In this document: positions 2,757 through 48,718 of the stretch, in pieces
How positions within the stretch are numbered: the first letter of the stretch is position 1
How the letters are laid out: every line of letters begins with the position of its first letter
From: Escherichia coli
Lineage (GTDB): Bacteria > Pseudomonadota > Gammaproteobacteria > Enterobacterales > Enterobacteriaceae
NCBI RefSeq assembly: GCF_003334255.1
Contig: NZ_QOWU01000040.1
Length of the DNA: 49,174 bases
Strand: one strand, 5' to 3'
The notes under the pieces: generated by a model
What the model saw: only the letters and a program-made list of their open reading frames with translations
Databases searched by the model: none
What the model was told of the DNA's origin: nothing
Program-made: the position numbers and the translations under genes

Positions 2757-4087
2757 CACGCCAGTTTCAGATCCCGGGTCATGTTTTCCACGTTGTTTTC
2801 GTGGATCACCACGTTGTCTTCGATACGAATGCCGCCGAACGGTTTCAGTGCTTCAATTTTCTGCCAGTTGAAGTGCTTGCTGAACTGCCCTTCACGCCAC
2901 GGTGCCAGTAGCGATTCGATGAAGTAGATACCCGGTTCGATGGTTAACACCATGCCCGGCTGGAGAATACGGGTGCAGCGCAGGTACGGATATTTTGCCG
3001 GTGCCGCGAGGTGCGTACCGCTATCATCCTGCATAAAACCAGCGACGTCATGCACCTGCAGGCCCAGCGGATGGCCGATACCATGCGGCATAAACGGCCC
3101 GGTAAGATCGTTTTCGACCATCGCTTCTTCACTCATATCGGTGATGATTTGATGTTTACGCAGCAGTTTGGCGATGCGCTGATGGAACTGGATGTGGTAA
3201 TCCACATAGCTGACGCCTGCTTTCATGGTGGCGATCAGCGCCAGTTGTTCATCATTAACGTCCTTCACCAGCTGCGCGTAGTCGTTGTCACTTTTTGCCG
3301 ACCAGGTACGGGTCAGGTCAGCCGCATAGCCGTTATATTCTGCCCCGGCATCCAGCAGGAAGCTGCGCATCTCTTCCGGTGCCTGATGGTCCAGTTTGGT
3401 GTAATGCAGTACCGCAGCGTGTTCGTTAAGCGCCACAATGTTGCTGTAAGGTACGTCGGTATCACGATGACCGGTCGCGGTCAGATAGGCAATGTTGATA
3501 TCGAACTCGCTCATGCCAGAACGGAACGCTTCTTCTGCCGCGCGGTGACCGTTGACCGCCATTTTCTGCGCTTCACGCATACAGGCCAGTTCGTACTCAG
3601 TTTTGAAGGAGCGATAGTAATGCAGGTAGTCGATAACCCCTTTCGGGTTGATGTTGCTGGCCTCAATACCCAGTTGCAGCGCACGTTCCGGCACCGGACC
3701 GATATAACCGATATTGCCGCGCGCAGCAGGCAGCAGGCTACCAATGCCATCGGCTTTCGGCAGCGCGATCACTTCCACATCTTCAGTCCAGAAAGAGGTC
3801 GGCAGCGGTTCGACGTTGTGCCAGTAATCAACCGGCAGATAGAACCACAGTTTCGGCTTGTTCACGCCATCCACCAGCAACCAGCAGTTTGGCACCTGAG
3901 TTACCGGCACCCACGCTTTGAATTGCGGGTTCACTTTAAACGGATAGGGATGATCGTCGAGAAAAACATTGAACAGCTCGCCGGAGTGAATAAGTAACGC
4001 ATCCAGCTTGAAGCGCGCCAGCGCATCGCGAGTCCGTTCTTGTAAGGTAGCTATATGATTTTTATAGAGCGAGGCCAGTGATTCCAT
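2756..4087 (-). CDS. pepQ: Xaa-Pro dipeptidase (prolidase)
   Basis: 443-aa ORF recognised as PepQ (M24 metallopeptidase). Confidence 0.95.
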
Positions 4088-7645: not shown

Positions 7646-7829
<184 letters not shown>

Positions 7830-13283: not shown

Positions 13284-15526
<2,243 letters not shown>

Positions 15527-41450: not shown

Positions 41451-43997
41451 TCACGAAAAATATTGCTGTAATAGCGGCGTATCGTGATCCTGATTGGCAG
41501 GCGGCATGTTACCGATAGATTTTGTGCGGAACGGAATCACCTGTTCACGACCATCAACCTTCACAATCTGATAGAACTGCGGCAGGTTGAAGTTGATGAA
41601 GCTTGAGCCGTAGGTAAAACGGTCATGCGATGACGAGTAGAAGCGACTGACGTCACGTACCAGCTCCTCTTTGCTGCCTTCGCAGTGGTGATATACCTCA
41701 ACCCGGTTGCTTTCGTCGAGAATGTAGATATTAAAGCCATTCTCGTCTTGCGTTTCTTCGAAAAAGAACTGGATGATCCCTTCGCTGGCAAAGCCGTCCA
41801 CCACCGCCGGTAATTTGACGTGATTGGTTTCAACCTGCACTGACAGGCCGTGCAGTTTGTTATGCGAAATCGCGCCATAAAACTCGATGGCGTTTTCCAG
41901 TTTCTGTACCGATACATTCAGGCGTTCGAAGAACAACCCCCAGGTTTGACCAGAAACGCGCAGCGCCTTGAAACGCCCGGTTTCCTGGCGGGTGCTGGAA
42001 AGACGCAATTCAATACACTCAGAAACCAGTTGCTGCACGCGAGTACGAATTAAGCCGCGCAGATGCTGGCTATAACAGAAGACTTCCACGCTATCTGGCG
42101 GTGCGGCGTCCTGATGCATTTTGCCGAGAATAGTTTTCAGGGCTTCGATCATCGATTGCTCGCCGTTGAAGTGCAGCGTACGCACTTCGTTCCACGAGTT
42201 GCGGTACAGCAGGTCAACGCTACCTACCAGGCAATTTTGATTCTCGCCAAAGCTGAAGACATCCAGCTTACGGAAATCGAAATGCACCACCTGATTGCGG
42301 AACGCCGCTGTCGGGTCATATTCCAGGTTAACGATAATCGCCAGATGGCGGATCTCACACGGGCTGTAGAGCGCCTTCGGTGTCGGTGCAGGTAAGCGCA
42401 GCGGGAAATGGTGCGACACGTCGGCGACCATCTCCTGCAACTTAGGCAAATCGACAATGCCGTTACCTTTAATATACAAACGGGTGCGCGAGGTCAGCAG
42501 GCCGTTAAACCATGCCCACGCCACCAGTTTATTCAGGTAACGGTTATATTCCAGCGGCTGATGGCTGATGATCGACTCAATATTTGGCGCGCGGTTATAC
42601 AGATACCAACCTGAACGGTTAGCCCGGCCCGGCGGCACATAAATAAAGGTCAGATTCGGTTCCGAGAGATCGGGTGAAATCTGCGGGTTTACCAGCGTCA
42701 CTTTACCTGGTAATGCTTCAAACGCGGCATACAGCTTACGCGTCAGCACGCCGATATCCTGCGGACTGGCGGAGACGCTAAGGTTATTGCGACGCGCAAA
42801 GCGGATCAGATTACGGTAGCTCTGCATCATCGCGTCGAGCAACTCGTTGTGCGCCTCACGCACCTGATCAATCTTCCAGTTAGCGCGGTTATCGAGCATT
42901 GCCAGACGAGCTTCGTCCCAACCCCACTCGCTCACTAACTGGCTCAACACTGCGCGACGCCAGCCTACGCAGGCGCGTTCACGGCTGAGCTTTTCGCACA
43001 CTTTTAAATAGAAGCAGCGACGTACTAAATCCAGACGGGTAAGATCTTCAATCGCCGTCAGGTATTCAGTAACACGCTCCAGCATCATGCAGTATGGATC
43101 GAGACCAAACGATACAATCTCGCCGTCGTGCAAACGCTGTTTGATATCTTTCGCCAGCAGACGTGGGTTCGGGTATTCCCAGGAATAGGCTTCCAGCAGC
43201 AGTGTTTTCAGTACCGCTTTGTATGGGGAATCGATACTCTTGTAGAGCTGCCAAAGGCTGGCACCAAAGTACTCTTCAGCAGAAAGCGAGCTTAAGCCAC
43301 CGAGATCCAGCCATTCATTTGGCGTCAGCACGCCCTGCGCGTAAAGCGTCATCACATAGTCGTCGTAATGCTCTTCTTCGTCGCACGGCACCATATTCCA
43401 CAGAATACGCTTACCGGCGAGACGCACGGCGGTACGATAAAATTCGTCAAGCAGCAGTATATGCTGGGTGGAGCCACAATCTTCGCCCCCCAGGCTGCCG
43501 CTTTCATTATGACGGAAGCGGTTTTCATCAATCAGGAAGAAGCTGACTTCCACACCCAGCGAGGCGGCCCAGTTTTCCAGCAGGCTACATTTACGTTGTA
43601 GCAATTGGCGCTCTTCGCTATCGAGCCAGGATTGATGACAGACCCAGATATCCAGGTCAGAGGAACAACTTTGCCCTACGGACGAGGTGCTGCCCATGGT
43701 GTATACACCAGTAATTGGAAGCTCACCTTTCGGCGGATCCTGTACTGACATTCCACGATACAGTTCAAGCTCGTTCAGGTAGTGGCGTTGAGTTTCATCA
43801 GGCGTGTAAAGGCAAATGCCTTTGGGAACGTTACCATCAAGGTAACCCGGCATTAGCGGATGGTGATAGTGCAACAATGTCGGCAGTAGACTGTAGACCT
43901 GTTGGAATGCAGGCCCCATAGCAGCAAGCGCGCGATCCACACGCAATTGATTTATGGCATCCAGTCTCTGTTTCAGAGTCTCAATATAGAGGTACAA
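41451..43997 (-). CDS. cyaA: Adenylate cyclase (class I), TTG start codon
   Basis: 848-codon ORF. The first codon on the minus strand (43995..43997) is TTG, not ATG; the track shows M by convention. The product begins (M)[23 protein letters not shown]. Confidence 0.95.
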
Positions 43998-44383
43998 GAC
44001 GTATCGCCTGATTTGCTACCCGTCATGACTGTGATTCCGCCAACATCAACGGTAACACGCGGCATTCGGGATATTTCGTATGTCAAAGGTAACCGTTACC
44101 ACTTTTCGCGCCTGGTTTTTTTAGTTTCACGACGAAAAAATGGTCTAAAACGTGATCAATTTAACACCTTGCTGATTGACCGTAAAGAAAGATGCGCTAC
44201 ATACAAGTGTAGCACCGTTTATTCTCTGTAAATTCCTTATTACAACGGCGTGAAACGCCTGTCAGGATCCACTGCCAGACCTCATTTTACGGTTTGCGCA
44301 GGCGTCTACGTTTCACCACAACACTGACATCACTCTGGCAAGGATGTTAGGATGGACCACGGATGATAATGACGGTAACAAGC

Positions 44384-45325
44384 ATGTTAGACAATGTTTT
44401 AAGAATTGCCACACGCCAAAGCCCACTTGCACTCTGGCAGGCACACTATGTCAAAGACAAGTTGATGGCGAGCCATCCGGGCCTGGTCGTTGAACTGGTA
44501 CCGATGGTGACGCGCGGCGATGTGATTCTTGATACGCCGCTGGCGAAAGTAGGCGGAAAAGGCTTATTTGTAAAAGAGCTGGAAGTCGCGCTCCTCGAAA
44601 ATCGCGCCGATATCGCCGTACACTCAATGAAAGATGTGCCGGTTGAATTCCCGCAAGGTCTGGGACTGGTCACTATTTGTGAGCGTGAAGATCCTCGCGA
44701 TGCCTTTGTGTCCAATAACTATGACAGTCTGGATGCGTTACCGGCAGGCAGTATCGTCGGGACGTCCAGTTTACGTCGCCAGTGCCAACTGGCTGAACGC
44801 CGTCCGGATCTGATTATCCGCTCCCTGCGCGGCAACGTCGGCACTCGCCTGAGCAAACTGGATAACGGCGAATACGATGCCATCATTCTTGCCGTAGCCG
44901 GACTAAAACGTTTAGGTCTGGAGTCACGTATTCGCGCCGCGTTGCCACCCGAGATTTCTCTTCCGGCGGTAGGACAAGGTGCGGTGGGTATTGAATGCCG
45001 CCTTGATGATTCACGCACTCGCGAGCTGCTTGCCGCGCTGAATCACCACGAAACTGCACTGCGCGTTACCGCAGAACGCGCCATGAATACCCGTCTCGAA
45101 GGCGGATGTCAGGTGCCAATTGGTAGCTACGCCGAGCTTATTGATGGCGAAATCTGGCTGCGTGCGCTGGTCGGCGCGCCGGACGGTTCGCAGATTATTC
45201 GCGGTGAACGCCGCGGTGCGCCGCAAGATGCCGAACAAATGGGGATTTCGCTGGCAGAAGAGCTACTGAATAACGGCGCGCGCGAGATCCTCGCTGAAGT
45301 CTATAACGGAGACGCCCCGGCATGA
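44384..45325 (+). CDS. hemC: Porphobilinogen deaminase (hydroxymethylbilane synthase)
   Basis: Track ORF 44363..45325. Start trimmed to the ATG at 44384 ([20 protein letters not shown]), 313 aa. Confidence 0.9.
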
Positions 45326-48501: not shown

Positions 48502-48718
48502 CCTGATATATAAAAAAACGCCTGCTCTTATTACGGAGCAGGCGTTAAAACAGGTCTGTATGACAACAAGTGGGTGCTTCACTCAACGTTGTGTCCATGG
48601 TGTCTGATGAGGCATAAGCGACATCTGTCAGTGGACGATAAGCACCGTAAACGGCTCTGCGTCATTCCGGAGTTTATGAGGCACTAAGGCGAACATAAGA
48701 GATGGAATGAGCATCTAC
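48502..48718 (-). ncRNA. glmZ: GlmZ small regulatory RNA (activator of glmS translation; formerly SraJ/RyiA)
   Basis: Minus strand reads GTAGATGCTCATTCCATCTCTTATGTTCGCC ... GACCTGTTTTAACGCCTGCTCCGTAATAAGAGCAGGCGTTTTTTT, which I recognise as GlmZ, including its intrinsic terminator (10-bp stem plus T7). No ORF on this strand. The span includes the whole T-run, so the 3' end is approximate. Confidence 0.85.

What the first reader, a model, noticed from the sequence alone, without database searches (positions are those of the whole stretch)
43995..43997. cyaA initiates at TTG
The first codon of the 848-codon adenylate cyclase ORF is TTG, read directly on the minus strand (plus-strand CAA at 43995..43997). 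There is no in-frame ATG upstream before a stop codon. A TTG start is a known translational throttle for cyaA and is easy to mis-annotate.
Basis: partly seen in the sequence, partly recalled or inferred. Interest (0 to 1): 0.35.

Follow-up and report, generated by a model that had tools for sequence, protein, structure and literature searches.

The report
E. coli cyaA starts at TTG
The adenylate cyclase gene of E. coli does begin with the weak start codon TTG at the stated position, but this is a textbook fact shown by experiment in the 1980s and already in standard annotation, so the finding is correct and ordinary.

Summary

- **The ORF.** The window is E. coli chromosome. An 848-codon minus-strand ORF (41451..43997) starts with TTG at 43997..43995. 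An in-frame TAG lies 7 codons upstream, and no ATG, GTG or TTG lies between them.
- **Annotation.** RefSeq places the cyaA start on this base. The product matches the NCBIfam class I adenylate cyclase equivalog end to end (1-848 of 848).
- **Conservation within E. coli.** The 64 nt around the codon are identical in at least 5419 of 5426 complete E. coli genomes.
- **Conservation across taxa.** TTG occupies the same position in Salmonella, Serratia, Sodalis, Vibrio, Photobacterium, Aeromonas and four unnamed relatives. In the enterobacterial relatives, the 16 nt upstream (AATCAGGCGAnACGTC) stay nearly fixed while sequence further upstream diverges completely.
- **Coding signature.** Changes in codons 2-26 fall almost only on third positions, so these codons are translated.
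- **Literature.** UUG:GUG:AUG give cyclase at 1:2:6 (Reddy 1985, cited in PMC5499595). Polyamines stimulate UUG-dependent initiation of cya (PMC7177335).
- **Mis-annotation.** Gene callers extended the ORF to upstream GTG or ATG codons in two relatives.

Interest is low. The only loose end is a short out-of-frame ATG ORF overlapping the start. It is not conserved beyond E. coli and Salmonella.

The parts
43995..43997 (-). TTG initiation codon of cyaA (read as fMet)
   Evidence: Read directly from the sequence. It is the ORF start and the RefSeq CDS start. It is identical in at least 5419 of 5426 E. coli genomes and is TTG at the homologous position in 11 of 12 cyaA loci.
41451..43997 (-). cyaA coding sequence: 848 codons plus TGA stop, class I adenylate cyclase
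   Evidence: NCBIfam NF006977 matches 1-848 of 848 at 2047 bits. RefSeq annotation agrees.
43998..44013 (-). Conserved translation-initiation block AATCAGGCGATACGTC, with a weak Shine-Dalgarno-like AGGCGA at 44009..44004 (6 nt before the TTG)
   Evidence: It has 0-2 mismatches of 16 against Salmonella, Serratia, Sodalis and GCA_030370565. The 60 nt further upstream are about 70% mismatched in an ungapped comparison. The predicted anti-SD duplex is only -2.9 kcal/mol, within the background of the gene body.
44016..44018 (-). In-frame TAG that closes the cyaA frame 7 codons upstream of the TTG

Best explanation
The TTG at 43997..43995 (minus strand) is the true initiation codon of E. coli cyaA, the class I adenylate cyclase that makes cAMP. 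Initiator fMet-tRNA reads it as UUG, so the protein starts Met-Tyr-Leu-Tyr-Ile-Glu. UUG pairs less well with the initiator anticodon than AUG, and here it sits behind only a weak Shine-Dalgarno-like AGGCGA. Together these keep translation of cyaA mRNA several-fold below what an AUG would give. This fixed post-transcriptional limit holds the amount of cyclase low, in addition to transcriptional repression by cAMP-CRP. It can be modulated by factors that affect non-AUG initiation, such as polyamines and IF2/IF3 status. What is shown here: the codon, the closed upstream frame, the annotation, the conservation and the coding signature from codon 2 onward. What is taken from literature: the 1:2:6 expression ratio and the polyamine effect. 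What is inferred: that conservation of TTG reflects selection for low or regulatable expression.
For: - **Sequence and frame:**
- **Annotation:** the RefSeq start is on the same base in two divergent E. coli strains.
- **Family match:** end-to-end match (1-848 of 848) to the curated class I adenylate cyclase equivalog.
- **Within E. coli:** the 64-nt block centred on the TTG is present in 5426 of 5426 genomes, with at least 5419 at >=99% identity, i.e. no mismatch in the aligned block.
- **Across taxa:** TTG is at the homologous position in a divergent E. coli, Salmonella, Serratia grimesii, Sodalis, Vibrio ponticus, Photobacterium sanctipauli, Aeromonas veronii, GCA_030370565, L011, L012 and L013.
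- **Coding signature:** substitutions in codons 2-26, by codon position, are 1/0/13 (Serratia), 1/0/9 (GCA_030370565) and 5/0/12 (Sodalis). This shows protein-coding constraint directly after the TTG.
- **Upstream block:** the 16 nt before the TTG are nearly invariant in the enterobacterial relatives, while the sequence further upstream is unalignable.
- **Literature:** UUG:GUG:AUG = 1:2:6, and UUG is phylogenetically conserved in cyaA (PMC5499595). cya belongs to the polyamine modulon through its inefficient start codon (PMC7177335).
Against: - Nothing here maps the N-terminus directly. The primary papers (Roy 1983, Reddy 1985, Thorner 1990) are not held, and no ribosome-profiling supplement could be read.
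- The predicted SD pairing is weak (-2.9 kcal/mol) and no better than at many internal positions. RBS strength alone would not single out this codon.
- The Pseudomonas class I cyclase uses ATG with a different, longer N-terminus. TTG is therefore not universal in the family.
- In Salmonella an in-frame ATG lies 10 codons upstream with no stop between it and the TTG. The 'closed frame' argument is specific to E. coli.
Confidence: 0.96

Rival explanations
1. Translation really starts at a downstream in-frame codon (TTG codon 18, GTG codon 20 or ATG codon 27), and the TTG at 43997 is merely the first start-like triplet of the open frame.
For: These codons exist. The predicted anti-SD pairing before TTG18 and ATG27 (-3.1 kcal/mol) is no weaker than before the first TTG (-2.9).
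Against: - Codons 2-26 evolve as coding sequence, with changes almost only at third positions.
- The peptide [23 protein letters not shown] is conserved from Enterobacterales to Vibrio.
- TTG18 and GTG20 are not conserved in Serratia, Vibrio or Aeromonas.
- The curated family model aligns from residue 1.
- Mutating this UUG changes cyclase yield (Reddy 1985, cited in PMC5499595).
Confidence: 0.02
2. The TTG is the start codon, but its identity is a neutral historical accident rather than a selected translational throttle.
For: No fitness measurement was made here. Start codons are conserved in general. The Pseudomonas class I cyclase works with ATG.
Against: A single T-to-A change would create ATG. 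Yet TTG persists across lineages whose synonymous sites and upstream regions have diverged heavily: Escherichia, Serratia, Sodalis, Vibrio, Photobacterium and Aeromonas. Replacing it raises expression 2- to 6-fold. PMC5499595 lists the conservation as non-random.
Confidence: 0.1
3. Initiation of cyaA is governed by the overlapping out-of-frame 17-codon ORF (ATG 44026..44024, stop TGA 43975..43973). Ribosomes translating it would occlude the UUG or be delivered to it.
For: The ATG has a stronger predicted anti-SD duplex (-4.8 kcal/mol) than the TTG (-2.9), and the ORF spans the cyaA start. The ATG is also present in Salmonella.
Against: - The ATG is absent from a 90%-identical relative (L012), Serratia, Sodalis and GCA_030370565, all of which keep the TTG block.
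- In Salmonella a 1-nt insertion changes its frame, so no peptide or stop position is conserved.
- A -4.8 kcal/mol duplex occurs at about 17% of arbitrary positions.
- No literature support was found.
Confidence: 0.04

Closest known systems
E. coli K-12 cyaA (b3806) UUG start codon, as described by Roy/Haziza/Danchin 1983 and Reddy/Peterkofsky/McKenney 1985
   Same: It is the same gene, codon and context. The window is identical or nearly identical to every complete E. coli genome here, and RefSeq annotates the same start.
   Different: Nothing differs. This is the known case itself.
Other E. coli genes with conserved inefficient start codons used as expression limiters (spoT UUG; cra, frr, gshA and uvrY in the polyamine modulon; infC AUU)
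   Same: A non-AUG start lowers basal translation and makes it responsive to the initiation machinery or to polyamines (PMC5499595; PMC7177335).
   Different: infC AUU is part of a specific IF3 autoregulatory loop. No such dedicated feedback on the cyaA UUG is documented in the sources read here.
Salmonella enterica cya
   Same: It has the same TTG, the same 16-nt upstream block (1 mismatch) and the same N-terminal peptide.
   Different: A 1-nt insertion removes the in-frame TAG and places an ATG in frame 10 codons upstream. The 'closed frame' argument that works in E. coli is therefore not available there.

Membership tests
Class I adenylate cyclase (CyaA, NCBIfam NF006977 / Pfam PF12633 + PF01295) | Full-length match to the curated equivalog model above its cut-off | tested here: met
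   NF006977: 2047 bits against a cut-off of 1761, protein 1-848 aligned to profile 1-848 of 848. Homologues that are 99% identical carry PF12633, PF26690 and PF01295.
Class I adenylate cyclase (CyaA, NCBIfam NF006977 / Pfam PF12633 + PF01295) | Enterobacterial genomic context: divergent from hemCDXY, followed by convergent cyaY | tested here: met
   RefSeq tables for L001 and L002. The same hemC neighbour is seen in Serratia, Vibrio, Photobacterium, Sodalis and Aeromonas loci.
Genes with a functional UUG initiation codon | UUG is the first start-capable codon of the frame, with the upstream frame closed | tested here: met
   TAG lies 7 codons upstream, with no ATG, GTG or TTG between.
Genes with a functional UUG initiation codon | Coding constraint begins directly after the UUG, and the codon is conserved in orthologues | tested here: met
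   Third-position bias in codons 2-26. TTG is found in 11 of 12 loci.
Genes with a functional UUG initiation codon | Recognisable Shine-Dalgarno element at normal spacing | tested here: inconclusive
   AGGCGA lies 6 nt upstream and is conserved, but the predicted duplex is only -2.9 kcal/mol, within background. PMC7177335 classes cya as having a normally positioned SD.
Genes with a functional UUG initiation codon | Experimental proof of initiation at the UUG (N-terminal sequence, mutagenesis, initiation profiling) | not testable with these tools
   Available only second-hand: Reddy 1985 mutagenesis as cited in PMC5499595. The primary papers and profiling supplements are not held.

The most novel reading that the evidence does not exclude
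The 17-codon out-of-frame ORF that starts at ATG 44026 and ends at TGA 43973 overlaps the cyaA UUG. It might be translated in E. coli and set how often ribosomes can use the weak UUG, by occlusion or by termination-reinitiation. That would add an unrecognised layer to cAMP homeostasis in the Escherichia/Salmonella lineage.
Probability: 0.04. Interest if true: 0.4.

Novelty: already known. Interest (0 to 1): 0.05.

Why it matters
cAMP is the master signal of carbon catabolite control in enteric bacteria, and too much adenylate cyclase is harmful. The weak UUG start is one of the classic examples of a non-AUG codon used to cap expression of a regulatory enzyme. For a genome scan the value is practical: it confirms that the annotation here is right. 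It also shows that longest-ORF or ATG-preferring gene callers mis-place this start in related genomes. It does not open a new question.

Tried and rejected
- **Primary papers.** I tried to read Reddy 1985 (PMC390610), Roy 1983 (PMC555187) and Thorner 1990 (PMC1204097). None is held, so they are cited through PMC5499595.
- **Direct initiation mapping.** I looked for cyaA in the supplements of the retapamulin preprint and of Saito et al. 2020. No supplements are held.
- **TIR structure.** I folded the TIR (-63..+48) to look for a structure hiding the UUG. The result was MFE -25.7 kcal/mol with a z-score of -0.06, so no structure beyond chance.
- **Known RNA elements.** The Rfam scan of the whole window found nothing in the cyaA leader.
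- **Promoter and terminator scan.** The consensus scan of the intergenic region gave only weak consensus hits and did not recover the leader's promoter.
- **Overlapping upstream ORF.** I considered the out-of-frame ORF as a regulator. I rejected it as the main explanation because neither the ATG nor its frame is conserved.
- **One failed look-up.** One homologue (P0093, Gilliamella) had no contig on record.
- **Scan not run.** Twelve loci obtained by cheap exact look-ups, plus the published survey, already answer the conservation question.

Full report
**1. The observation**

On the minus strand the window reads ...ggtagcaaatcaggcgatacgtc TTG TAC CTC TAT ATT GAG..., with the TTG at 43997..43995. 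The mechanical ORF list gives 41451..43997 (-), 848 aa, start codon TTG. The translation is (L/M)[32 protein letters not shown]...LLQQYFS*.

Translating the same frame further upstream gives ...SHDG*QIRRYV before the TTG. That is an in-frame TAG at 44018..44016 followed by six sense codons (CAA ATC AGG CGA TAC GTC), none of them a canonical start. The nearest upstream ATG (44026..44024) is out of frame. Downstream, the next in-frame start-like codons are TTG (codon 18), GTG (codon 20) and ATG (codon 27). Every factual element of the finding is correct.

**2. What the locus is**

A 701-nt query across the start matches all 5426 complete E. coli genomes in the collection, always under features named cyaA and hemC. 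In RefSeq the cyaA CDS of strain 720632 starts at locus position 3404, which maps to window 43997, and is 2547 nt long. The neighbours are hemC/hemD/hemX/hemY, divergent upstream, and cyaY, convergent downstream. The least similar E. coli genome listed for this region (94% identical) is annotated the same way. The protein aligns to the NCBIfam equivalog NF006977 'class I adenylate cyclase' over residues 1-848 of an 848-position profile, at 2047 bits against a cut-off of 1761. The ORF counted from the TTG is therefore exactly the length the curated family expects.

**3. Is the TTG more than the first start-like triplet?**

Within E. coli, a 64-nt query centred on the codon is found in 5426 of 5426 genomes at 80% coverage or more. 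At least 5419 of them are at >=99% identity, meaning no mismatch in the aligned block, which necessarily includes the TTG.

Across genera I fetched the DNA encoding homologues by exact protein look-up and read the starts directly. The homologous codon is TTG in all of the following:
- Salmonella enterica
- Serratia grimesii
- Sodalis sp.
- Vibrio ponticus
- Photobacterium sanctipauli
- Aeromonas veronii
- three metagenomic or assembled relatives (L011, L012, L013)

Only the Pseudomonas homologue starts with ATG, and it has a longer, unrelated N-terminus.

In the enterobacterial relatives compared, the 16 nt before the TTG (AATCAGGCGAnACGTC) differ at 0-2 positions. The preceding 60 nt are about 70% mismatched in an ungapped comparison.

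After the TTG the substitution pattern is that of coding sequence. For codons 2-26, differences by codon position are:

| Relative | Position 1 | Position 2 | Position 3 |
|---|---|---|---|
| Serratia | 1 | 0 | 13 |
| GCA_030370565 | 1 | 0 | 9 |
| Sodalis | 5 | 0 | 12 |

The N-terminal peptide is recognisable as far as Vibrio and Aeromonas. This excludes initiation only at codon 27 or later, and in E. coli the frame is closed seven codons upstream. The TTG is the only canonical candidate.

**4. How it works**

UUG is decoded by initiator tRNA with a mismatch at the first position, and so initiates less efficiently than AUG (established knowledge).

For this gene specifically, PMC5499595 summarises the mutagenesis of Reddy, Peterkofsky & McKenney (1985). 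UUG, GUG and AUG direct adenylate cyclase synthesis at 1:2:6 in the native initiation region and 1:2:3 in a lacZ fusion. The same paper states that UUG is phylogenetically conserved at cyaA in many Enterobacterales and other gammaproteobacteria. It also reports that, in its model mRNA system, a UUG start was the non-AUG start least sensitive to poor nutritional state, cold and ppGpp.

PMC7177335 places cya in the polyamine modulon, in the class where polyamines enhance fMet-tRNA binding at an inefficient UUG/GUG codon behind a normally positioned SD (Yoshida 2001).

My own numbers fit a deliberately weak site. The best anti-SD duplex upstream of the TTG (AGGCGA, 6 nt spacing) is -2.9 kcal/mol, no better than 41% of arbitrary in-frame positions inside the gene. 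The region has no structure beyond shuffled controls (z = -0.06). No Rfam family matches the leader.

The step from 'conserved weak start' to 'selected throttle on cAMP synthesis' is inference. It is supported by the persistence of TTG where one T-to-A change would make ATG.

**5. 'Easy to mis-annotate'**

This is borne out. In GCA_030370565 the deposited gene call begins at a GTG 11 codons upstream ([20 protein letters not shown]), although AACCAGGCGAAACGTC-TTG is intact. In L011 the call begins at an ATG 26 codons upstream ([35 protein letters not shown]), although ATCAGGCGATATGTC-TTG is present. In Salmonella a 1-nt insertion removes the in-frame TAG and puts an ATG in frame 10 codons upstream. 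The NCBI protein still begins at the TTG (P0002).

**6. Rivals**

- **Downstream initiation** is contradicted by the coding signature, the family model and the mutagenesis.
- **A neutral TTG** cannot be formally excluded without fitness data, but it fits the depth of conservation poorly.
- **Control by an overlapping upstream ORF.** The 17-codon out-of-frame ORF (ATG 44026 to TGA 43973; [17 protein letters not shown]) has a somewhat better anti-SD match (-4.8 kcal/mol). However, neither its ATG nor its frame is conserved outside Escherichia and Salmonella. I keep it only as the low-probability novel reading.

**7. Comparison with the known, and verdict**

This is not merely like the classic cyaA UUG start. 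It is that case, in E. coli itself, already in RefSeq and in the literature since 1983-85.

- Observation: confirmed.
- Interpretation: supported.
- Novelty: already known.
- Interest: 0.05.

Noticed in passing
window 43973..44026 (-): An out-of-frame ATG at 44026..44024 opens a 17-codon ORF ([17 protein letters not shown]) that overlaps the cyaA TTG and ends at TGA 43975..43973. Its predicted anti-SD duplex (-4.8 kcal/mol) is stronger than that of the TTG. The ATG occurs only in E. coli and Salmonella, and in Salmonella a 1-nt insertion puts it in frame with cyaA.
   Followed up: partly
L004 1501..1533 and L011 1001..1078: Automatic gene calls in two relatives extend cyaA upstream, to a GTG (+11 codons) in L004 and an ATG (+26 codons) in L011. 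The conserved TTG and its upstream block are present in both. These are probable start-site mis-annotations in public data.
   Followed up: yes
window 44363..44386 (+): hemC has two in-frame ATGs. The longest ORF starts at 44363 (320 aa, [11 protein letters not shown]...), whereas RefSeq starts at 44384 (313 aa, MLDNVLR...). This is a second start-site ambiguity in the same intergenic region.
   Followed up: partly
window ~44149..44166 (-): The block GTTAAATTGATCACGTTT (TGTTA-N6-TCACG, resembling a CRP site) is conserved upstream of cyaA from E. coli to Serratia and Sodalis, while the flanking leader sequence diverges. From my own knowledge this fits the known cAMP-CRP repression of the cyaA P2 promoter. 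It was not tested here.
   Followed up: partly
window 44194..44215 (both strands): The palindrome GTGCTACACTTGTATGTAGCGC, followed by a T-rich run, scores as terminator-like on both strands in the hemC-cyaA intergenic region. It is also present in L011. Its function was not examined.
   Followed up: no
window 14921..15172 (-), 48512..48718 (-), 7698..7775 (-): Rfam gathering-threshold hits elsewhere in the window: Erse sRNA (319 bits), GlmZ/SraJ sRNA (218 bits) and naRNA4 (92 bits).
   Followed up: no
L005 (Vibrio ponticus), L004, L011, L012, L013: In several deposited or assembled relatives cyaA is called as two or three consecutive ORFs (for example 417 + 317 + 98 aa in L005). This suggests frameshifts or assembly errors, or pseudogenisation. 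It is why many database 'homologues' are only 300-500 aa long.
   Followed up: no
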